Sequence record: PX969468.1
Direction: 5' to 3' (one strand)
Length of the DNA: 64,000 nt
Source: a phage
Both the position numbers and the translations under genes were made by a program. Positions 18,482-51,169 of this stretch are shown in pieces; the stretch's first letter is position 1, and each line of letters begins with the position of its first letter. The notes beneath the pieces were generated by a model. That model ran no database searches and was not told where the DNA came from. It worked only from the letters and a program-made list of their open reading frames with translations.

Positions 18482-19744
18482 TCAGCAACCACAACTTCCG
18501 TAGTGCTTAACTCGCTCGATAACTTCCGCTTGCTTACCTTTATTGTAAGGACGGGAGTTAGGACTGGAAAGGTATCCAGATACACGCCTGATCACACTGA
18601 TCGTACCTTCCTCATGGTTTCCACAACAAGGGCATATAAAACCTCTTGGAGAGGCTTTAAATTCTCCCTGGAAACCGCACTTGAAGCATTGGTCAACAGG
18701 CTGGTTTATACCGAAGTACATAATGTGTTTATACCCGAAGTCAACAAGAGCCTCTAAAGCATCCAGGTTGTTTTTCAGGTTAGGTGTTTCTACGTATCCG
18801 ATGTTGCCACCAGAGGAGATCATAGCAAAACCTTCCTCATACTCCCACTTATCAAAAGGAGAGCTATTTATCCATACTGGCTGATGGAAACTGTTGGTGA
18901 GATATTCATGCTCGTGCTTCAACACTTCCGGATATTCACGATCCAGACAGGTTGCAGCTTTATAGCATAGACTCTCAGAAGGAGTGCCGTACAAGCTAAA
19001 TGCTAGTCTACTTTCCTTCTTGTATCGCTCACAAGCATCTCTCATGTGCTGAAGGATTTCAAGAGCTAAAGCCTTGTCACCCTCTCTACCCAAAATCTGA
19101 CAGGTTTCATACACACCGATATACCCAATACTGATGGAAGCGTACCCGTCATAGAAGAGTTTATCAATACTCTCTTCAGGATCCAGGCGAGCAAGAGCGC
19201 CTTCACACCACATGATGGGGTTCTGCCCTGCCTTTGTTCCTTTTAGACGATTAACCCTTACAAGGTGAGCCTCGTATGCAAGATCCAAGTATTCGTCAAG
19301 AACTGCAAAGAAATCAACACCTTCCGTCTTGGCTTTTGCCGCAATCATTGGCAGGTTAAGGCTAACAACACCTAAGTTAAATCTACCAAGGTATTTCTCC
19401 TCGCCTGTTTCCAAGTCATTGTATTTGCTAAGAAAACTCCGGCAACCCATGCTCGTTACTTTGCCATCTGTCGAGCCTGTCACTTTTCTATTTAGTGGTA
19501 CAGATACGAAGTCAGGGTAGATACGTTCTGCACAGCATTCCAGAGCTAATCGTTTCAAATCATAGTTAGGATCCCCAGGGTTCATGTTGACACCCTCTTC
19601 CAGGAAGAACAGCACTTTAGGGAACACAGGTGTGATACGTTCTTCACCAAGACCCATTTTGTGGACTTTCAAGTAGTTTTTGGTAATCATTCTACCAAAG
19701 ACCGAGGTATCCAGTCCTAAACTTAATGTGATGAATGGAGTCTG
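18482..19744 (-). CDS. nrdD: anaerobic ribonucleoside-triphosphate reductase, exon 2
   Basis: In-frame extension upstream of the track ATG reads QTPFITLSLGLDTSVFGRM..., continuing T4 NrdD-like sequence; glycyl-radical motif RVSGYL and CxxC pairs at the C-terminus. Confidence 0.7.
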   Translation of the reverse strand, partial: QTPFITLSLGLDTSVFGRMITKNYLKVHKMGLGEERITPVFPKVLFFLEEGVNMNPGDPNYDLKRLALECCAERIYPDFVSVPLNRKVTGSTDGKVTSMGCRSFLSKYNDLETGEEKYLGRFNLGVVSLNLPMIAAKAKTEGVDFFAVLDEYLDLAYEAHLVRVNRLKGTKAGQNPIMWCEGALARLDPEESIDKLFYDGYASISIGYIGVYETCQILGREGDKALALEILQHMRDACERYKKESRLAFSLYGTPSESLCYKAATCLDREYPEVLKHEHEYLTNSFHQPVWINSSPFDKWEYEEGFAMISSGGNIGYVETPNLKNNLDALEALVDFGYKHIMYFGINQPVDQCFKCGFQGEFKASPRGFICPCCGNHEEGTISVIRRVSGYLSSPNSRPYNKGKQAEVIERVKHYGSCGC

Positions 19745-20541
19745 CTGTCTCCTCTCTGTGTTTCCACAGGGCCAGACTATCTCTTACTCTACTTCAATAA
19801 GATAATAACCCTTTATTGTGAGATGCTTACCTTCGGCATTTCCTTCGATAGCCCTATGAACGTTACCTACGTTCAAATTTAAGGCTTTTGCACAGGCATA
19901 AAGTGAAGGATATTCACCCACCAAGGTTTTCCCTTTATATGCCTGCACTTTCCTATAGCACTTACCTGGACAAAGTCCTGTTCGGAAAGCATGTCTCTTA
20001 TTATCTTCCGGCAAAACCCACTCTAGGTTAGACGGATGATCATTCAATGTATTGCCATCTTTATGATTCACTTCCCAGTTTTCAGGATCTTCTGGGACAT
20101 CTGGCAAACAATACAAGGCAACAATCCTTGAGGTTTGGATTCGAATCTTTTTACCTTTGTGGTTGAAAGAGTACATATAACGGCGTTTAACATGCTTGTT
20201 ACCTTTTCCATAACCTCCCCACAATATTGGGTGTAGCATTCCACGTTTTCCGTATACGTTTCCAACCTCATCAATCACATAGTTTGATTCTTCACCATTA
20301 AGAATGATCTTTTTCATAGAGCCTCTCCATTTCGAAGTTAGTATTTCAACTAACCCCTACACTACTTGGTTCAGAAATGTTTGTCAAGCATCTCTGCCTT
20401 TCGTTAGTCGTTACAACCGTTCCAACTCCTGTAAGAACTAGTCACGGGATTGGCATAGCTTTCGCCTTAGCGTTCCCCGTTAGCCGGATTTACCGACCCC
20501 TCTTATGAGGTTAGGAGAGTTTTACAACGGCCAGTTTGTTA
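19745..20541 (-). mobile_element. putative group I intron interrupting nrdD (about 797 nt) carrying an HNH endonuclease ORF
   Basis: Exon 1 ends ...TSVNG on a U; exon 2 resumes at QTPF after a G; the interval holds 224 nt non-coding, an HNH ORF, and 39 nt. T4 nrdD is known to carry a group I intron. Confidence 0.65.
19784..20317 (-). CDS. HNH homing endonuclease (intron-encoded)
   Basis: HNH motif VNHKDGNTLNDHPSNLEWVLPEDNKRHA. Confidence 0.65.
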   Translation of the reverse strand: MKKIILNGEESNYVIDEVGNVYGKRGMLHPILWGGYGKGNKHVKRRYMYSFNHKGKKIRIQTSRIVALYCLPDVPEDPENWEVNHKDGNTLNDHPSNLEWVLPEDNKRHAFRTGLCPGKCYRKVQAYKGKTLVGEYPSLYACAKALNLNVGNVHRAIEGNAEGKHLTIKGYYLIEVE

Positions 20542-21402
20542 ACCGTTGACAGAAGTTAACGTATTGATTTGGTAGAGCAAAGTCTGCATACTATCAAACA
20601 CGTCTTTATCTGTCATTTGCATTGCAACAGTCTCAGCATCTGGCAACCAATGTTCCTGACAAAATTTAAGGTTCTTCTCGTAGGTTGCTTCAGCATACTG
20701 TGCCAGATAATGATCAATATGGCTCATGGTCTGACCACCATATTGAGCACTAGCTACTGCACTAGAGATTTGGCTAAGGATTGTTGTTGCAACCCCTATT
20801 GACTTCGGCTTACTGACATGGGCGTTGCCAATGTTGAATCCGTTTTCCAGCATATCCGGATAATTTACCAAACAACAGTTTGTTAACGGACTGATCAGGT
20901 AGTCAAGATCATGCACATGGATGAAGCCTTTGTTGTGCTCTTCGGAGACACGGTCTGGCAGGATCTGTGTTGATGCAAGATGTTTGCTAAGGATGCCTGC
21001 AAGCAGGTCACGATGAGTATGAACATGATTAGTAGGCTTATTTGCGTTTTCTTTTGTAAATTCATCACAAGTTCGATCCAAGAAGCCACTAATATCTGCA
21101 AGCAGTTTTCCACCTGCCTCTCTGTTATTATCTCTTGTCTGTCTGTACTGGATGTATTCTCTGGCTGCACATTTTAAACCCATATCCATAAGAGCATCTT
21201 CAACAAGGATATGGATATTTTTTACAGAGATCGTGCACTGATCGGTTGGTAGATTGTTAGCAACAACTTCATTAACCGCACAGGCGATCCGGTAAGCTTC
21301 TTCTTCAGTATGTCCAGACTCAAGTAAGGCGGACTCTGCCGCCTTGATCACCTTAATTCCGTTATAGAACTCTTCTCTACCGTCCCGTTTTACAACTTTC
21401 AC
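20542..21402 (-). CDS. nrdD: anaerobic ribonucleoside-triphosphate reductase, exon 1
   Basis: ATP-cone N-terminus (KVVKRDGREEFYNGIKVIKA); ...KGFIHVHDLDY...GFNIGNAHVSKPKSIGVATTI... matches T4 NrdD from memory; ends at an in-frame stop inside the intron. Confidence 0.7.
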
Positions 21403-45166: not shown

Positions 45167-45241
45167 GCCCTGTTAGCTTAGTGGATAAAGCAGCGGCCTT
45201 CTAAGCCGTTGACACTGGTTCGAGTCCAGTACGGGGTGCCA
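45167..45241 (+). tRNA. tRNA-Arg (anticodon TCT)
   Basis: Cloverleaf folded by eye: 7-bp acceptor stem, D-arm GCTT/AAGC, anticodon loop CTTCTAA, T-arm ACTGG-TTCGAGT-CCAGT, encoded CCA. Confidence 0.75.
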
Positions 45242-45245
45242 AATT

Positions 45246-45332
45246 GGGGAGTTATCCCGTAGAGGTAGCGGTGTAGACTGTAAATCTATTGTCATTGCGA
45301 CTCGGGTGGTTCGACTCCACCACTCCCCACCA
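45246..45332 (+). tRNA. tRNA-Tyr (anticodon GTA), type II with long variable arm
   Basis: Acceptor GGGGAGT/ACTCCCC, anticodon loop CTGTAAA, T-arm GGTGG-TTCGACT-CCACC, CCA. Confidence 0.75.
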
Positions 45333-45446
45333 AATTTATATTTTTAAATGCATAAATCATACAGATAATGACATTGATATTTATCGTCGTTTATACTAGT
45401 CACTAACTGCTCGAAAATCAGTGTCATTATCAGTGTAATTTATAAA

Positions 45447-45537
45447 GGAGGGTAGGGAGCAATGGTGCTCAAGCGGTCTTGAAAACCGTCCCGTTGAGGA
45501 TGACTCGATGATGGTTCGATTCCATTACTCTCCGCCA
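45447..45537 (+). tRNA. tRNA-Ser (anticodon TGA), type II
   Basis: Acceptor GGAGGGT/ACTCTCC, anticodon loop CTTGAAA, long variable arm, T-loop TTCGATT, CCA. Confidence 0.65.
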
Positions 45538-45635
45538 CATTGTTGACCTTGTAATTAAGCGAAAGCCGGAAGCAGAACCGGATTATCAAATGTTACAGTC
45601 GTCATCGCCGACTAGCCACATGGTCAACATATTGC

Positions 45636-45734
45636 GCTAGGTAAGCCCTTTGGCAAGGGCGAGGATTTTTAATCCTGAAAATAGACGAGGTAGTCGTTGA
45701 ATACATAGGTGGTTCGATTCCATCACCTAGCACC
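45636..45734 (+). tRNA. atypical tRNA-like gene (about 99 nt; Lys TTT-like anticodon loop; about 29-nt extra region); possible pseudogene
   Basis: Perfect 7-bp acceptor (GCTAGGT/ACCTAGC), D-arm, T-arm GGTGG-TTCGATT-CCATC, anticodon loop TTTTTAA with a 4-bp stem; insertion too long for a canonical type I tRNA; no full CCA. Confidence 0.35.
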
Positions 45735-45738
45735 TTTT

Positions 45739-45814
45739 GCTGATGTAGCACAATTGGCAGTGCAATTGATTTGTAATCAATAGGTTGCAGGTTCAAGTCC
45801 TGCCATCAGCACCA
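45739..45814 (+). tRNA. tRNA-Thr (anticodon TGT)
   Basis: Acceptor GCTGATG/CATCAGC, D-arm GCAC/GTGC, anticodon stem ATTGA/TCAAT, loop TTTGTAA, T-arm GCAGG-TTCAAGT-CCTGC, CCA. Confidence 0.8.
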
Positions 45815-45815
45815 T

Positions 45816-45890
45816 GGCCCTGTAGCTGGAAGGTTCAAGCAAGCGACTCATAATCGCCAGACGGTGGTTCAATTCCACCCAGGGCCACCA
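45816..45890 (+). tRNA. tRNA-Met or Ile2 (anticodon CAT)
   Basis: Acceptor GGCCCTG/CAGGGCC, anticodon loop CTCATAA, T-arm GGTGG-TTCAATT-CCACC, CCA; G1-C72 argues against initiator. Confidence 0.7.
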
Positions 45891-45901
45891 AATAATAAAT
45901 A

Positions 45902-45978
45902 CTCCGCGTAGCTCAGCTTGGTAGAGCGCCTGATTTGGGATCAGGAGGTCGAGTGTTCGAATCACTCCGTGGAGACCA
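45902..45978 (+). tRNA. tRNA-Pro (anticodon TGG)
   Basis: C1-G72 acceptor, D-arm GCTCAGCTTGGTAGAGC, anticodon stem CCTGA/TCAGG, loop TTTGGGA, T-arm GAGTG-TTCGAAT-CACTC, CCA. Confidence 0.8.
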
Positions 45979-46798: not shown

Positions 46799-47082
46799 GA
46801 GTTACTGCACTGGTTGTTTTGTGCTTGTTATTGTGTGGGTGTGCAACCAGCGTTGAGAGAGAATACAAGATTGACCCTCCGGATGTAGGAAGGTTGATTG
46901 TTAAACCTCCCGAGGGTGCTATGAAACCACCTGCTAAAGCTATCCCTTTGAAGAAAGGTGCGCCAGATGCGGTGAATTCTGGCATTATGAGGGATAATAA
47001 CCTGTCTTGTAGTAATGATAGAGCTAAATTGATCATTTTGCAAGACTATATAAGAACACTGTTTCCAAAGGAGAGAGGTTAA
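46795..47082 (+). CDS. o-spanin (Rz1-like) outer-membrane lipoprotein
   Basis: Signal peptide with lipobox-like LLCGC, proline-rich mature region; start overlaps the i-spanin stop (separate architecture). Confidence 0.6.
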   Translation: MRVTALVVLCLLLCGCATSVEREYKIDPPDVGRLIVKPPEGAMKPPAKAIPLKKGAPDAVNSGIMRDNNLSCSNDRAKLIILQDYIRTLFPKERG

Positions 47083-47507
47083 TGTCTAAGATTTACGGAC
47101 CGTGTTCTGAAAAGCAGAAGATGATCCTAGAGAACGATGCAGATATTTTGGTGATCGGAGGTGCAGCTGGGTCTGGAAAGTCGTTCCTCTTGCAGCTAAT
47201 GCCACTTAAAATTATTGATGACCCACACAGCTCTGTGGTTATGTTCCGAAGAACAACTCCACAGTTGGAAGGTGAGGGTGGGCTATGGCCTAAAGCAGTA
47301 GCTATTTACAGTGATCTGCCTGAAAACATTAAACCAAAGTTCAGAGAGAAGGATCATAAGTTTATTTTTCCACGGTTTGATCCGAGCACTGGCAAGTGGG
47401 ACAGGAGCAAAAAAGGGGCCGTTGTAAAATACTGCCACATGGAGTATGTCCAAGATAAGCTTAACCATCAAGGCCTTGAGTACACCATGGTTTGCTTCGA
47501 TGAGGGT
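47082..47507 (+). CDS. terminase large subunit, exon 1 (ATPase N-terminal part)
   Basis: Walker A GGAAGSGKS, Walker B-like MVCFDEG; reading frame stops right after the Walker B region. Confidence 0.65.
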
Positions 47508-47557
47508 TAATTTGTAGCTCTCGTAAAACCTCCCTAATTGCGGGGAAATCTTTATTA

Positions 47558-47586
47558 TTGACACCACCAACCTGTTATGGTAACAT
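47558..47586 (+). promoter_or_regulatory. sigma70-like promoter inside the intron (TTGACA-17-TAACAT)
   Basis: Hexamers at 17-bp spacing about 140 nt upstream of the endonuclease ORF. Confidence 0.4.
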
Positions 47587-47725
47587 GATAGAGGCTTCGA
47601 AGAGAGATCGAAGGTATGGTAACAGTGTGTTGATTTAGATAATCCGCAGCGAAGCATCCGAGAGGATGAACGTTCAACGACTAGTCGAAAGACGTAGAAT
47701 CAAGCGATTCGAAACGGGAGGGTGA

Positions 47726-48316
47726 ATGTGTAATACTAAAAAATGTATGGATTGCCAAAGAGTTCTACCTCTTGATGATTTCTTTTTATCATCTAAGAGC
47801 CAGGATGGATACTCAGGTACATGCAAGGAATGCTATATGTACTACAGGAAGAATGGATCTCGTAGAAACAAAAATATGGTTAAGAGAGATGATGCAGCAT
47901 CTTTTATTCAAGACTTACTGAAGAAAGGTGAGCTTTTTGAATGTAAATCTTGTCATGAAAGTATGCTTGCTGATAGTTTTTACACAAAACGCGACTATGG
48001 TAAAGTGTATCTAGTCACGAACAGGTGTAAGATGTGTGAAAAGTTTTATCAGATTGAGAAGAAATTTCACATAACAAAAGATGAATACTATCGTCTACTC
48101 TCAGATCAAGATCATAAGTGTGCAATCTGTAGAATATCTCTTGATGAGTATAAGACTCAAGGATATAGAGATTTCTTTTGTGTTGATCATGACCATAAAA
48201 CTGGTGCTGTAAGAGGGTTGCTTTGTGATAAATGCAACAGGGCTTTAGGTTTCTTCCAAGAGGATGAGGAAACCATTCTTAGAGCGGCAGAGTATTTACA
48301 CATTCATAAGATATAG
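47726..48316 (+). CDS. endonuclease VII-like / HNH-family zinc-finger homing endonuclease (intron-encoded)
   Basis: CVDHDHKTGAVRGLLCDKCNRALGF matches the EndoVII core; several upstream CxxC pairs. Confidence 0.6.
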   Translation: MCNTKKCMDCQRVLPLDDFFLSSKSQDGYSGTCKECYMYYRKNGSRRNKNMVKRDDAASFIQDLLKKGELFECKSCHESMLADSFYTKRDYGKVYLVTNRCKMCEKFYQIEKKFHITKDEYYRLLSDQDHKCAICRISLDEYKTQGYRDFFCVDHDHKTGAVRGLLCDKCNRALGFFQEDEETILRAAEYLHIHKI

Positions 48317-48390
48317 TCTGGTCTGCATGGAGACATGCAGCTGCCTGAAAATGGCGGGGCAAGACTAGCGACCTTGCCCGAACATAAACG

Positions 48391-49512
48391 ACGCAATTCG
48401 AATGGGAGCAGATAGACTATTTGATGTCTCGTCTGCGATCTCAGTCAAAGTATCCATCAAGAATGGTTATCAGCTGTAACCCCGACTCAGAACACATGCT
48501 TGCCAAACTGGTTAGGTGGTGGTTGGACGATGAAGGGTATCCAGATCCGGAGAAATGCGGTAAGAAAAGATATTTTATCCGACGCGACGGGGAATTTATC
48601 TGGGGAGATTCTAAAGAAGAGTTGATAGAGAAATACACCACGGTTAACGGACTTGGCGTAGAGATCAAGCCAAGACCGTTGTCATTCTCGTTCATAGGCG
48701 CAACAATATTCGATAATCCTGTCTGTTTGAGAGACAACCCAGAATACCTTGCTTTCCTCGAAGGTCTACCAGAGCTGGAAAAAGCTCAGCTTCTCCATGG
48801 TAACTGGTTTGCAAAGCCTGAGGGTGCAAACTATTTTCAAAGATCTTTCCTTCGTGATGCCGATAGAGTACCTCTTGGGTCAGTATCTTGCAGGGCATGG
48901 GATAAGGCAGGAACCGAGAGAACTTCCGGTAATAAATTTCCTGACTTTACTGCCAGTATTAAGGTAAGTAAAGATAGCGACGGATTTTATTACCTGTCCG
49001 GTGATTATTGTCCTGAGAACGTGGATGACGGGAGGTATTCCACAGGTCTGGAAGGCAAGTTCTGTAAAAAGGCTGGTGAACGAGATGTGATCATCAGGAA
49101 ACAGGCGCAGTTCGATGGTGATGATTGCATAATCGTCTTCTCTGTGGACCCAGGGCAGGCAGGTAAGAGTGAGTTCTTAACCTCCTCCAGATCCTTGCTT
49201 GCCGAAGGGTTCAGGGTTGAAGAAGACCCAATGCCTTCCAACAAGTCTAAACTGACAAGGTTCTCACCTTTTGCCAATCTTGCCCAACAAGGAATGGTGA
49301 GGATTGTAAAATCCAGTTTCCATCCTGATACTCTGGAAGCATTTCTGACTGAACTTGAAAAATTCAACGGGGAAAGATCAACATTTAACAGAAAAGACGA
49401 CTGGGCCGACTGCGTAGCTTCTGCGATTAATTTCCTGGAGAAAGAGGAGGTAGCACTTCCTTGTGTGATTCCATCAATCTCATCACCTTCTATGTTCAAG
49501 CGTTTTATCTAA
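48391..49512 (+). CDS. terminase large subunit, exon 2 (ATPase motif C plus nuclease domain)
   Basis: In-frame region upstream of the track start reads TQFEWEQIDYLMSRLRS...; ISCNPD coupling motif; nuclease Asp contexts RAWDKAGT, IVFSVDPGQ, DDWADCVASA. Confidence 0.65.
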   Translation, partial: TQFEWEQIDYLMSRLRSQSKYPSRMVISCNPDSEHMLAKLVRWWLDDEGYPDPEKCGKKRYFIRRDGEFIWGDSKEELIEKYTTVNGLGVEIKPRPLSFSFIGATIFDNPVCLRDNPEYLAFLEGLPELEKAQLLHGNWFAKPEGANYFQRSFLRDADRVPLGSVSCRAWDKAGTERTSGNKFPDFTASIKVSKDSDGFYYLSGDYCPENVDDGRYSTGLEGKFCKKAGERDVIIRKQAQFDGDDCIIVFSVDPGQAGKSEFLTSSRSLLAEGFRVEEDPMPSNKSKLTRFSPFANLAQQGMVRIVKSSFHPDTLEAFLTELEKFNGERSTFNRKDDWADCVASAINFLEKEEVALPCVIPSISSPSMFKRFI

Positions 49513-49562
49513 GTGTTGCCAATCTTAATTAGATGTGGTACAATAAAGTAATTGGAGATACT

Positions 49563-49588
49563 AGCCCTCTGACGAGGGCTATTTTGTT
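49563..49588 (+). terminator. terminator-like hairpin (AGCCCTC-TGAC-GAGGGCT plus T-rich tail)
   Basis: 7-bp stem then ATTTTGTT, after the terminase gene. Confidence 0.45.
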
Positions 49589-49612
49589 ATACTGTTTTGA
49601 GGGGTAAAGCTT

Positions 49613-51169
49613 GTGTCCAAAAAGAACCGCAGGAAACACAACGCCACAGCCAAAACTGTGAATAAATCTGGGAACGCAGGCGCACCAACTCATAATGTTC
49701 GTATGAGTGAGATCGGTTCTGGCGCACTTTCCCAAATTATGGCAGAATCGCAATCTATGATGGTTGAGGAATTGCGTTGGCCTCAGCTGATTGCCACAGT
49801 GGAGACTATGAAATGTGATTCCACAGTTGCTACTGCCTTAGATACAAAATATGTTTTCATCACGAAAGCATTCAATGATTTTAAGATCCTTTATAATGTT
49901 AAAAGTGAAGACTCTAAGAAAGCTGCCGAGCTTATAGAGTATTCTTTGCGTAATTTGGCAAACCAACAAACTCTTCGAGATATTGCAAGAAGCGCAGCTA
50001 CCTTTAACGAGTATGGTTTTTCACTGTTTGAGAAAGTATACCGCAGAGAGAAAGAAGGTAAATACGCCGGGATGCTTCTTATTGATAAAATTGCATTCCG
50101 ACCTCAGGCCAGTTTGTCCAGATCAGAGCCGTTTGTCTTTGACAAGAATAGTAGAACACTGACAGGTATTTATCAATCACCTAATGCATTTCTAAACACG
50201 CAGAATGCACGCTGGGCTGGTCCTCTTGCTGCAATGCCTTCAAAAGGCTTTAATGAGCCTGAAATTTTCATCCCTGCTAAAAAGCTTATGCTCATGACTC
50301 TGTCAGGAACAGAATCTAACCCTGCAGGTGTGTCACCAATGATAGGTTGCTACAGATCTTTCCGTGAGAAAGTCTTGATTGAAAACCTTGAGGTAGTTGG
50401 CTGCTCCAAAGACCTTGGTGGTGTGCTTGAGCTGAAAATTCCTTCCAATATTCTGAACAAGGCCAGCATTGACCCGAATTCAATGGAAGGGAGAATGGTT
50501 GCAGATCTTATGCTTGACGCAGCAAATGCCCATAGTGGGGAGCAAAGTTTCTTTATACTTCCGTCTGATAGAGATAAGTCTGGTAAAGAGCTTTACTCCA
50601 TGACCCTGAAGGGGGTTGATGGTATGGGCAAGCAGTATTCGACTAAAGATTTGATTGATGCCCGTAAGAAGGCGATTCTTGACCGTTTCGGTGCTGGCTT
50701 TATTAACCTCGGTAACGATAACGTTGGATCCTTCTCTCTGTCTGAGTCAAAACAGTCTATCCATGGTCATTTTGTTCAGCGTGATATAGATATTATCACT
50801 GAAGCCTTCAATAAGGATCTTATTCCACAGCTTCTGGCATTGAATGGTATCATCCTTGAAGATGATGATATGCCTAAACTGAAACCTGGTCTGATTGAAG
50901 AGGTGGACATGGAGAGCTTCTCCAAATTTGTCCAGAGGATCGGTGCTGTAGGTTACTTGCCAAAAACTCCTGCAGTAATTAATAAGATTCTTGAAGTAGG
51001 CGGGTTTGATGAAAGATTTGACGAGGACATGGATCAGGAAGAGCTGATGAAGCTCTTGGGCCAGGATATCAGTAGGGCTGGTGATGGAATGGCTGCAGGA
51101 TCCACTGGTAACGGCACTTCTAAGATGTCATCAACCAGAGATAATTCCATATCCAACATGGAAAATTAA
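49613..51169 (+). CDS. portal protein (putative)
   Basis: 518 aa immediately after the terminase; GTG start with GAGGGG RBS; position and size only. Confidence 0.5.
   Translation: MSKKNRRKHNATAKTVNKSGNAGAPTHNVRMSEIGSGALSQIMAESQSMMVEELRWPQLIATVETMKCDSTVATALDTKYVFITKAFNDFKILYNVKSEDSKKAAELIEYSLRNLANQQTLRDIARSAATFNEYGFSLFEKVYRREKEGKYAGMLLIDKIAFRPQASLSRSEPFVFDKNSRTLTGIYQSPNAFLNTQNARWAGPLAAMPSKGFNEPEIFIPAKKLMLMTLSGTESNPAGVSPMIGCYRSFREKVLIENLEVVGCSKDLGGVLELKIPSNILNKASIDPNSMEGRMVADLMLDAANAHSGEQSFFILPSDRDKSGKELYSMTLKGVDGMGKQYSTKDLIDARKKAILDRFGAGFINLGNDNVGSFSLSESKQSIHGHFVQRDIDIITEAFNKDLIPQLLALNGIILEDDDMPKLKPGLIEEVDMESFSKFVQRIGAVGYLPKTPAVINKILEVGGFDERFDEDMDQEELMKLLGQDISRAGDGMAAGSTGNGTSKMSSTRDNSISNMEN

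What the first reader, a model, noticed from the sequence alone, without database searches (positions are those of the whole stretch)
47082..49512. Terminase large-subunit gene split by an intron-like insertion with an EndoVII-type endonuclease and its own promoter
The ATPase half (Walker A/B, ends ...CFDEG) and the remainder (motif C ISCNPD plus nuclease domain) lie in different frames 0.9 kb apart. The interval holds 215 nt of non-coding sequence, a TTGACA-17-TAACAT promoter, and an ORF with the DHDHxxGxxRGxLCxxCN EndoVII core. The 5' exon ends in U and a 3' junction after G restores the frame (FDEG|TQFEWEQ...). A self-splicing intron in the packaging ATPase would tie virion assembly to splicing.
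Basis: partly seen in the sequence, partly recalled or inferred. Interest (0 to 1): 0.8.

Follow-up and report, generated by a model that had tools for sequence, protein, structure and literature searches.

The report
Known group I intron in terminase gene
The phage's DNA-packaging (large terminase) gene really is interrupted by an 883-base self-splicing-type group I intron that carries its own homing-endonuclease gene, but this intron was already described for the rV5 family of E. coli phages and is annotated in public records, so it is a correct but ordinary finding.

Summary
The window is an rV5-like coliphage (Vequintavirus, 97.5% identical to rV5_ev146).

- **Gene layout.** TerL exon 1 is 47082-47507 and exon 2 is 48391-49512. 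They are separated by an 883-nt insert, 47508-48390.
- **Boundaries.** All six intron-less relatives I aligned lack exactly these 883 nt. The joined exons give a 515-aa TerL that differs at one residue from a contiguous homologue.
- **RNA fold.** The insert matches Rfam RF00028 (group I intron) over the full model at 48.3 bits, E 6.5e-11. That is just below the 50-bit cut-off, because a 591-nt ORF sits in the P8 loop. ORF-less alleles of the same intron score 84-85 bits.
- **Splice-site features.** P1 has a U·G pair at U47507, and the intron ends in G48390.
- **The ORF.** 47726-48316 is an EndoVII-motif endonuclease (PF02945, 1.9e-21).

None of this is new. The 2013 rV5 genome paper has a section "Introns in terminase". 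rV5, LL12 and BASEL GenBank records annotate TerL as a spliced join. A 2018 paper lists the JES-2013 copy of this endonuclease as intron-encoded.

The internal promoter is present and plausible but unproven. Splicing itself was not testable here.

The parts
47082..47507 (+). TerL exon 1 (aa 1-142: Walker A, Walker B ...CFDEG); the last base, U47507, is the 5' splice site
   Evidence: Terminase_6N positions 2-104. Alignment with intron-less alleles.
47508..48390 (+). Group I intron, 883 nt. It starts with UAA, so the exon-1 frame stops at once, and it ends with the terminal G48390.
   Evidence: RF00028 at 47498-48340, 48.3 bits, E 6.5e-11. Exactly these 883 nt are absent from 6/6 intron-less alleles. 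ORF-less alleles score 84-85 bits.
47500..47524 (+). P1 hairpin: 5' exon plus first intron bases (47500-47509) paired with the internal guide region (47515-47524). U47507·G47517 is the wobble pair at the splice site.
   Evidence: cmscan alignment and MFE fold. Position -1 is T in 8/8 intron-bearing alleles and C in 6/6 intron-less alleles.
47529..47534 (+). P3 5' strand (CCUCCC), which pairs with 47716-47721
47539..47672 (+). P4-P5-P6 domain with a roughly 90-nt P5 extension (three-way junction)
   Evidence: cmscan. The unconstrained MFE fold reproduces it.
47558..47586 (+). Sigma-70-like site TTGACA-17-TAACAT with TG extended -10, inside the P5 extension: a candidate internal promoter for the endonuclease gene
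   Evidence: 10/12. Chance expectation 0.04 per 215 nt. PhagePromoter feature at the equivalent place in MT682716. Function untested.
47679..47683 (+). P7 5' strand (GACUA), which pairs with 48314-48318 (UAGUC)
   Evidence: Conserved ACGACUA / AAGAUAUAGUC elements aligned to RF00028. Complementarity read from the sequence.
47684..47710 (+). P7.1 (47684-47693) and P7.2 (47697-47710) hairpins between P7 and P3', the hallmark of subgroup IA
   Evidence: MFE folds. Appears as an insertion relative to the general model.
47716..47721 (+). P3 3' strand GGGAGG, which is also the Shine-Dalgarno sequence of the endonuclease ORF (4 nt before AUG 47726)
   Evidence: Sequence. At least 99% paired with 47529-47534 in the read-through RNA, and about 55% unpaired in RNA starting at 47594.
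47724..47737 (+). P8 5' strand (contains the AUG). It pairs with 48291-48305 and so encloses the ORF in the P8 loop.
   Evidence: ORF-less alleles have a different, short P8 (AAGCGA/UCGCUU).
47726..48316 (+). Intron-encoded endonuclease, 196 aa: two N-terminal CxxC...CxxC repeats plus a C-terminal EndoVII/ββα-Me catalytic core (DHDH...R...CxxCN). The stop codon UAG 48314-48316 lies inside the P7 3' strand.
   Evidence: PF02945 E 1.9e-21. PHROG endonuclease VII families. PDB matches Hpy99I 1.8e-5 and T4 endonuclease VII 5e-4. At 95-99% identity it occurs in 30 phage records, each a record that carries the full-length insert in TerL.
48291..48318 (+). P8 3' strand, J8/7 and P7 3' strand (…UUACACAUUC AUAAGAUA UAGUC)
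48323..48379 (+). P9 (48323-48340), P9.1 (about 48341-48356) and P9.2 (48357-48379) hairpins
   Evidence: cmscan ends at the P9 hairpin, 48340. MFE fold.
48390..48390 (+). Terminal guanosine (omega-G), last intron base
48391..49512 (+). TerL exon 2 (aa 143-515: TQFEWEQ..., ISCNPD motif, RNase-H-like nuclease domain)
   Evidence: Terminase_6N 111-211 plus Terminase_6C..
48707..48708 (+). Empty insertion site of a second TerL intron. It is occupied in rV5, HdK5 and ECML-10 by a 979-nt intron with an HNH ORF, and in RudolfGeigy by a 268-nt ORF-less form.

Best explanation
Window 47508-48390 is a mobile group I intron of the phage IA type (no P2; P7.1/P7.2 present). It sits in the large terminase gene of an rV5-like coliphage, immediately after the Walker B motif.

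**Splicing (inferred).** The pre-mRNA folds into the P1-P9 core. An external guanosine attacks after U47507, which is held in the U·G pair of P1. The freed exon then attacks after G48390. This joins GGU|ACG and gives mRNA for a 515-aa TerL.

**The endonuclease gene.** The P8 loop carries a 196-aa EndoVII-motif (ββα-Me, 'DHHRN') homing endonuclease. I infer that this enzyme cuts intron-less TerL alleles during mixed infection, and that repair copies in the intron together with nearby exon bases.

**Control of its expression (inferred).** Its Shine-Dalgarno sequence is the 3' strand of P3 and its AUG lies in P8, so read-through TerL transcripts should translate it poorly. A sigma-70-like site inside the P5 extension could produce a shorter RNA that lacks the 5' strand of P3 and frees the ribosome-binding site. 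T4 intron endonucleases use the same logic.

**Shown here:** the fold, the exact boundaries, the restored frame, the nuclease family and the presence/absence polymorphism. **Inferred:** splicing chemistry in vivo, endonuclease activity and target, and promoter use.
For: **Fold**
- RF00028 full-length match, 48.3 bits, E 6.5e-11.
- The same intron without the ORF scores 84-85 bits in magaca, rV5 and RudolfGeigy.
- The unconstrained MFE fold of the ORF-deleted intron gives P1, P3, P4, P5, P6, P7.1, P7.2, P8, P9, P9.1 and P9.2.
- The 3' half is similar to the T4 nrdB and td introns and to phiKZ-type introns.

**Boundaries**
- 883 nt are exactly absent from 6/6 intron-less alleles.
- The spliced protein differs at 1 of 515 residues from the contiguous CarlMeissner TerL.
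- It matches phrog_979 in one stretch.
- The rV5 supplementary table lists the spliced TerL as 515 aa.

**Constraint at the splice site**
- Position -1 is T in 8/8 intron-bearing alleles and C in 6/6 intron-less alleles. Positions +3 and +6 also track intron state. All three changes are synonymous.

**Mobility**
- Of 119 phage records holding this TerL region, about 66 are empty, about 23 carry the ORF-less intron and 30 carry the intron with the ORF.

**Nuclease:**

**Expression**
- The SD is at least 99% paired in P3 in the read-through RNA, and about 55% free in RNA starting at 47594.
- Promoter site.
- T4 precedent: PMC2988022.

**Literature**
- PMC3606486, 'Introns in terminase'.
- PMC6083498 lists the JES-2013 copy as intron-encoded.
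- Join annotations in GenBank records.
Against: - No transcript or splicing data for any Vequintavirus were found, so splicing is inferred from fold and frame only.
- The window copy scores 1.7 bits below Rfam's gathering cut-off, and the whole-window gathering scan missed it.
- P10 is weak: about 3 bp with an offset.
- The promoter-like site is retained in ORF-less alleles, so its conservation does not show that it serves the ORF. It is also not in the rV5 authors' promoter table as far as the text search could tell.
- In the predicted fold of the short transcript the AUG is itself paired.
- Endonuclease activity and target site are untested.
- Some intron-bearing alleles have decaying ORFs, for example the Gotham frameshift.
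Confidence: 0.92

Rival explanations
1. The gene is split by an endonuclease insertion without RNA splicing. Two TerL polypeptides (aa 1-142 and a C-terminal piece starting near 48424) would be made and assemble, as NrdA does in Aeromonas phage Aeh1 with mobE.
For: Many GenBank records annotate two separate 'terminase large subunit' CDSs. An ATG/TTG exists at 48421-48424. A precedent is cited in PMC7344957.
Against: - There is a full group I core with P1 U·G and a terminal G.
- The 33 nt at 48391-48423 upstream of that start are in frame and match the intron-less genes codon for codon.
- There is no well-spaced SD before 48424; the GGGAG is 16 nt upstream.
- The split would cut the ATPase core between Walker B and motif III.
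- The separate CDS annotations are automatic gene calls. Curated records use a join.
Confidence: 0.03
2. It is a group I intron that still splices, but the endonuclease and the 'promoter' are relics. The element would then be no longer mobile and would simply be inherited vertically or by general recombination.
For: - ORF-less alleles (about 23 records) and a frameshifted ORF in Gotham show ORF loss.
- Intron-less alleles all carry C at -1, G at +3 and G at +6, which could be a cleavage-resistant site.
- The promoter site is kept in ORF-less alleles.
Against: - The window ORF is intact, 196 aa, with all catalytic and zinc residues.
- It is 95.8-99.0% identical at protein level across the other 30 records that hold it.
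- The three allele states occur within very closely related genomes, which fits ongoing gain and loss.
Confidence: 0.15
3. The intervening sequence is removed at the protein level (an intein), or is bypassed by ribosomal frameshifting or hopping.
For: None beyond the fact that the two halves lie in different frames.
Against: The exon-1 frame meets UAA at the first intron codon, and 215 nt without an ORF follow. There are no intein motifs. The RNA fold explains the insert fully.
Confidence: 0.005

Closest known systems
TerL introns of Escherichia phage rV5 (Kropinski et al. 2013, PMC3606486; NC_011041 CDS 'ORF64ABC', join of three exons)
   Same: Same gene, same insertion site after ...FDEG, and the same ribozyme: intron 1 is about 97-99% identical outside P8. 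The spliced product has the same 515-aa length.
   Different: rV5's intron 1 is the 319-nt ORF-less form with a different short P8. rV5 also has a second, 979-nt intron with an HNH ORF at the position equivalent to window 48707|48708, and that site is empty in this window.
ORF-containing allele in JES2013, WalterGehring, MaxBurger, nomo, rV5_ev146 and others (30 phage records)
   Same: Essentially identical element: 96-97.5% DNA identity over 2.8 kb and 95.8-99% ORF identity. BASEL records annotate TerL as a join with 'putative homing endonuclease' inside. Fang et al. 2018 (PMC6083498) list the JES-2013 protein as an intron-encoded EndoVII-motif endonuclease.
   Different: Only point differences. 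The window has G at +3 of exon 2 (ACG rather than ACA), one private ribozyme substitution (47632) and a patch of private synonymous changes in exon 1.
[quoted passage not shown]
   Same: A phage subgroup IA-type core, with sequence similarity of the P7-P9 half to the T4 nrdB and td introns. An endonuclease ORF looped out of a peripheral helix. The ribosome-binding site is sequestered by RNA structure, and a candidate internal promoter lies upstream of the ORF.
   Different: - The host gene differs: a late packaging gene rather than early nucleotide-metabolism genes.
- The ORF sits in P8 rather than P6 or P9.1.
- The nuclease is EndoVII-motif rather than GIY-YIG or a classical HNH.
- The candidate promoter is sigma-70-like rather than a T4 middle or late promoter.
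- No operator-like copy of the homing site was found above chance.
F-CphI of cyanophage S-PM2, the 'DHHRN' EndoVII-motif homing endonuclease family (PMC6083498)
   Same: [quoted passage not shown]
   Different: F-CphI is free-standing next to the psbA intron ('collaborative homing'), whereas this ORF lies inside the intron. Sequence similarity is confined to the catalytic core.
Other TerL group I introns: Lactobacillus phage LL-H, Pectobacterium phage CB7 (spliced by RT-PCR), Bacillus phage SIOphi (spliced in vitro and in vivo)
   Same: Group I introns, often with HNH-type ORFs, interrupting the large terminase gene. Splicing has been shown experimentally in CB7 and SIOphi.
   Different: Different phage lineages. 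Homology of insertion site and ribozyme to this intron was not established here. The only phiTE match I examined lay in the ribonucleotide reductase intron; a second match in that record was not examined.

Membership tests
Group I intron (Rfam RF00028) | Conserved catalytic core, helices P3-P9 with P4/P6 and P3/P7/P8 domains | tested here: met
   Full-model match 1-253, 48.3 bits, E 6.5e-11. This is 1.7 bits under the gathering score because of the 560-nt insertion in P8. ORF-less alleles of the same intron score 84-85 bits. The MFE fold reproduces the helices.
Group I intron (Rfam RF00028) | 5' splice site after a U that forms a U·G wobble in P1 with the internal guide sequence | tested here: met
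   U47507·G47517 within a 10-bp P1. Position -1 is T in 8/8 intron-bearing alleles against C in 6/6 intron-less alleles.
Group I intron (Rfam RF00028) | Intron ends with a guanosine (omega-G), and excision restores the host reading frame | tested here: met
   G48390. Exactly 883 nt are missing in intron-less alleles. The spliced TerL is 515 aa, with 1 difference from a contiguous homologue.
Group I intron (Rfam RF00028) | P10 pairing between the guide region and the 3' exon | tested here: inconclusive
   Only about 3 bp (ACG/ACA with UGU at 47513-47515) and offset by one base, read from the sequence. Most alleles have A at +3, which makes a Watson-Crick pair.
Group I intron (Rfam RF00028) | Guanosine-dependent self-splicing of the RNA | not testable with these tools
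   No transcript data. The published rV5 and LL12 annotations are themselves homology-based.
Subgroup IA (phage IA2-like) introns | Extra P7.1/P7.2 hairpins between P7 and P3', and relatedness to T-even phage introns | tested here: met
   Hairpins at 47684-47693 and 47697-47710. blastn similarity of the core 3' half to the T4 nrdB and td introns. The subgroup definition is taken from my own knowledge. No subgroup-specific model was run.
EndoVII-motif ('DHHRN') homing endonucleases / PF02945 | Catalytic core D-H-x-H ... R ... N with CxxC...CxxC zinc site | tested here: met
   PF02945 E 1.9e-21 covering profile positions 4-81 of 82. The alignment to Hpy99I and T4 EndoVII shows DHDH, R and CDKCN aligned. 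Motif definition from PMC6083498.
EndoVII-motif ('DHHRN') homing endonucleases / PF02945 | Encoded within a mobile element that shows presence/absence polymorphism at one conserved site | tested here: met
   The ORF lies in the P8 loop. At 95-99% identity it occurs in 30 phage records, each a record that carries the full-length insert in TerL. About 66 records are empty, 23 ORF-less and 30 ORF-containing.
EndoVII-motif ('DHHRN') homing endonucleases / PF02945 | Site-specific cleavage of the intron-less allele that promotes homing | not testable with these tools
   No biochemical or cross data were found for this protein.
Large terminase, Terminase_6N/6C (T4-like TerL) | Single polypeptide with an N-terminal ATPase (Walker A, Walker B, motif III) and a C-terminal RNase-H-like nuclease | tested here: met
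   The two exons cover Terminase_6N 2-104 and 111-211 plus Terminase_6C. The spliced protein matches phrog_979 in one stretch, E 3.4e-208.

The most novel reading that the evidence does not exclude
The most that could be new is population-level and regulatory detail, in three points.

1. ORF-containing and ORF-less forms of the intron carry entirely different P8 stems. The endonuclease therefore seems to have arrived, or left, as a 'P8 plus ORF' cassette exchanged between the conserved P3' and J8/7-P7' core sequences, rather than by simple insertion or deletion.
2. Three synonymous exon positions (-1, +3, +6) separate all intron-bearing from all intron-less alleles examined. This suggests a homing-site/resistance polymorphism maintained in a 66:23:30 mixture of alleles.
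3. The endonuclease's ribosome-binding site is the P3 3' strand, and a sigma-70-type promoter inside P5 would free it. That would be a T4-like switch rebuilt from different parts in a late gene.
Probability: 0.35. Interest if true: 0.3.

Novelty: already known. Interest (0 to 1): 0.15.

Why it matters
For annotation it matters in a practical way. Automatic pipelines still split this TerL into two or three 'terminase' fragments plus a 'recombination endonuclease VII'. Rfam's default threshold also misses the intron when the ORF is present.

Biologically it is one more documented case of a mobile group I intron targeting the most conserved motif of a phage packaging ATPase. The Vequintavirus collection holds empty, ORF-less and ORF-containing alleles at two TerL sites, and a similar intron in nrdD. 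That makes it a convenient natural system for studying the homing-endonuclease gain/loss cycle, but it does not open a new question.

Tried and rejected
1. **Whole-window Rfam scan at gathering threshold.** It found only tRNAs. The intron appears only with E-value thresholds.
2. **Operator hypothesis** (an intron copy of the homing site near the promoter, as for I-TevI). The best local match is GCTTCGAAGAGAG against GCTTCGATGAGGG, score 10 against 7.4±1.2 in shuffles. A fraction of 0.058 of shuffles reach that score, so it is not significant and I rejected it.
3. **Av-05 TerL intron as a diverged homologue for covariation.** It sits at the same aa-142 site, but the record has an extra in-frame insertion and an inverted exon piece and crosses the record origin, so it was unusable.
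4. **The phiTE match.** I hoped it was the RT-PCR-validated Certrevirus TerL intron. It lies in the ribonucleotide reductase gene, so it gives no direct experimental support for this intron.
5. **rV5 supplementary promoter table.** There is no entry matching the intron promoter sequence, with the caveat that this was a search of machine-read text.
6. **Covariation statistics within Vequintavirus.** Not attempted. Only 14 variable ribozyme positions exist among 8 alleles.
7. **Intein or frameshift readings.** Rejected because of the immediate UAA and the non-coding stretch.
Full report
**Identity of the window.** The 2.8-kb region 46900-49700 is 96-97.5% identical to many rV5-like coliphages of the genus Vequintavirus. 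The best match is rV5_ev146 at 97.5%.

**Check of the observation.**
- ORF 47082-47510 encodes 142 aa with GAAGSGKS (Walker A) and MVCFDEG (Walker B), followed by TAA.
- A second frame from 48391 reads TQFEWEQIDYLMSRLRS...MVISCNPD... through to 49512.
- Pfam places exon 1 on Terminase_6N profile positions 2-104. It places the 48391 frame on positions 111-211 plus Terminase_6C. These are two halves of one TerL.
- The interval contains 215 nt without an ORF (47511-47725).
- It contains TTGACA-17-TAACAT at 47558-47586 with a TG extended -10.
- It contains a 196-aa ORF (47726-48316) with CVDHDHKTGAVRGLLCDKCN, matching PF02945 Endonuclease_7 at E 1.9e-21.

**Is it a group I intron?**
- At Rfam's gathering threshold the whole-window scan reported only tRNAs.
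- With E-value thresholds the region 47498-48340 matches RF00028 over the entire model (1-253) at 48.3 bits, E 6.5e-11. That is 1.7 bits below the cut-off.
- The shortfall comes from a roughly 560-nt insertion, the ORF, in the P8 loop.
- Relatives that carry the same intron without the ORF (magaca, rV5, RudolfGeigy) score 84-85 bits, E about 1e-20.
- An unconstrained MFE fold of the intron with the ORF replaced by a tetraloop reproduces most of the architecture: P1, P3, P4, P5 with an extension, P6, P7.2, P8, P9, P9.1 and P9.2. Folding 47677-47722 on its own adds P7.1.
- P7 is a pseudoknot, so the MFE fold cannot show it. It is GACUA 47679-47683 paired with UAGUC 48314-48318, read from the sequence and the conserved elements aligned.
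- The core's 3' half is recognisably similar to the T4 nrdB and td introns and to phiKZ-type introns.
- P7.1/P7.2 and the absence of P2 place it with the phage subgroup IA introns. The subgroup criteria come from my own knowledge.

**Exact boundaries.**
- I aligned the window with eight intron-bearing and six intron-less Vequintavirus TerL genes. The intron-less genes lack exactly 47508-48390, 883 nt.
- Joining 47507 to 48391 gives a 515-aa protein. It differs from the contiguous CarlMeissner TerL at a single residue and reads ...MVCFDEG|TQFEWEQ... identically.
- It matches the TerL family phrog_979 as one uninterrupted stretch, E 3.4e-208.
- The rV5 supplementary table lists the spliced TerL as 515 aa.
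- U47507 forms the U·G wobble with G47517 in a 10-bp P1, and G48390 is the terminal guanosine. P10 is weak, about 3 bp.

**Evidence of constraint and mobility.** Three synonymous exon positions track intron state:

| Position | Intron-bearing alleles | Intron-less alleles |
|---|---|---|
| -1 | T in 8/8 | C in 6/6 |
| +3 | A in 7/8 | G in 6/6 |
| +6 | A in 7/8 | G in 6/6 |

- The window itself is a hybrid, GGT|ACGCAA.
- The T at -1 is what P1 requires. Whether the intron-less triplet of changes also protects against the endonuclease is an inference.
- Across the phage collection 119 records hold this part of TerL. Thirty have the ORF-containing intron.
- Fifty-three cover at least 80% of the ORF-less intron query, which gives about 23 ORF-less alleles.
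- Eighty-nine cover the empty-site junction query once ORF-less alleles are joined in, which gives about 66 empty alleles.
- These counts include duplicate RefSeq/GenBank pairs.

**P8 differs between the two intron forms.** The ORF-containing and ORF-less forms do not differ by a simple deletion. Their P8 stems are unrelated: GAAUGUGUAA.../...UUACACAUUC against AAGCGA/UCGCUU. The flanking P3' and J8/7-P7' sequences are identical. P8 plus the ORF therefore behaves as an exchangeable cassette.

**The endonuclease.**
- It is intact in the window.
- At 95-99% protein identity it occurs in 30 phage records, each a record that carries the full-length insert in TerL. The next best hit is 40% identical.
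- Its closest solved relatives are the sequence-specific ββα-Me enzyme Hpy99I (E 1.8e-5, residues 63-192) and T4 endonuclease VII.
- Two N-terminal CxxC...CxxC repeats precede the catalytic core.

**Expression of the endonuclease.**
- Its Shine-Dalgarno sequence GGGAGG (47716-47721) is the 3' strand of P3. Its AUG lies in the 5' strand of P8. Its stop codon UAG (48314-48316) lies in the 3' strand of P7.
- In a modelled read-through RNA the SD is at least 99% paired with 47529-47534.
- In an RNA starting at 47594, just downstream of the promoter-like site, it is about 55% unpaired. In that model the AUG is paired.
- The promoter-like site is one of the two best in the region.
- Sites of this quality are expected 0.04 times per 215 nt by chance. 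They are about two-fold enriched on the window's + strand: 24 against 11.7±4.1.
- PhagePromoter predicted a promoter at the equivalent position in the Gotham record.
- This mirrors the documented T4 arrangement, in which RNA structure sequesters the RBS and an internal late or middle promoter relieves it (PMC2988022).
- Here it is inference only. The site is also retained in ORF-less alleles.
- A search for an I-TevI-style operator copy of the homing site was not significant, p about 0.06.

**What is already known.**
- The rV5 genome paper has a section 'Introns in terminase'. It states that TerL is divided into three segments, one intron containing a homing endonuclease, and it thanks D. Shub for locating the intron (PMC3606486).
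- The rV5 RefSeq record annotates TerL as a three-exon join.
- The LL12 record and its announcement describe an intron-containing TerL.
- The BASEL records annotate the very allele seen here as a two-exon join with a 'putative homing endonuclease' inside (methods in PMC8594841).
- Fang et al. 2018 list the JES-2013 copy of this protein among intron-encoded EndoVII-motif ('DHHRN') endonucleases (PMC6083498).
- TerL introns are also documented, with experimental splicing, in Pectobacterium phage CB7 and Bacillus phage SIOphi.

**Rival readings.**
- A non-spliced split gene, as with Aeh1 NrdA/mobE, is contradicted by the ribozyme core. It is also contradicted by the in-frame conservation of the 33 nt before the first possible restart codon, and by the lack of a well-placed SD there.
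- An intein or a frameshift is excluded by the immediate UAA and the non-coding stretch.
- A still-splicing but no longer mobile element cannot be excluded, although the ORF is intact.

**Verdict.** The observation and the core interpretation are correct, with confidence of about 0.9 that this is a spliced group I intron with a homing-endonuclease gene. The element is already published and annotated. It is therefore a correct but low-novelty finding. The 'own promoter' remains a plausible, untested detail.

Noticed in passing
window 19745-20541, minus strand (nrdD 18482-21402, minus): A second intron in the window. The anaerobic ribonucleotide reductase gene nrdD is split by 797 nt that are absent from rV5 nrdD. 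The insert carries an HNH_3 ORF (19784-20317, minus) and gives a weak RF00028 match (28 bits, E 7.6e-5). Joining the exons gives a 707-aa protein, the same length as rV5 NrdD and identical to it over the 40 residues compared across the junction (..TSVNG|QTPF..). As in TerL, the 5' exon ends GGT where the intron-less allele has GGG.
   Followed up: partly
window 48707|48708: Empty site of a second TerL intron. rV5, HdK5 and ECML-10 carry a 979-nt intron with an HNH ORF there. RudolfGeigy carries a 268-nt ORF-less form that scores 95.6 bits for RF00028. TerL in this genus therefore has two independent intron sites, each with empty, ORF-less and ORF-containing alleles.
   Followed up: partly
window 47722-47737 and 48291-48308 compared with L004/L005 (ORF-less alleles): ORF-containing and ORF-less forms of the intron have unrelated P8 stem sequences between identical core flanks. 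The endonuclease therefore appears to have been gained or lost together with its own P8 stem, not by simple insertion or deletion.
   Followed up: partly
window 47507, 48393, 48396: Synonymous exon positions -1, +3 and +6 separate intron-bearing alleles (T, A, A) from intron-less alleles (C, G, G) in the 14 sequences compared. The window is a hybrid (T, G, A). It also has a private patch of synonymous changes at 47363-47474, which suggests recombination or co-conversion near the intron.
   Followed up: partly
window 45636-45734 (+), within the tRNA cluster 45167-45978: An odd 99-nt tRNA-like gene. ARAGORN calls it 'tRNA-???' with a four-base anticodon (atcc), and Rfam's tRNA model gives only 35.5 bits. 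The six neighbouring tRNAs (Arg, Tyr, Ser, Thr, Met, Pro) look normal.
   Followed up: no
L007 (MT682716 Gotham), equivalent to window 47738-47743: A one-base deletion in the A-run near the start of the endonuclease ORF truncates its N-terminus in phage Gotham. This is an example of decay of the homing-endonuclease gene while the intron is kept.
   Followed up: no
L008 + L011 (NC_025830 Av-05): Avunavirus Av-05 has a related intron (74% identity over 167 nt) starting at about the same TerL position, residue 142. Its exon 1 carries an extra in-frame segment of about 700 nt, and the middle of TerL (aa 131-248) lies on the opposite strand. This could be an inversion or an assembly problem.
   Followed up: partly
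public records MG065635-MG065690 ('Campylobacter phage ...'): Eighteen records labelled Campylobacter phage match this TerL region, and those listed are about 96-98% identical to E. coli Vequintavirus genomes there. This looks like mislabelling or contamination of that data set rather than a real host difference.
   Followed up: no
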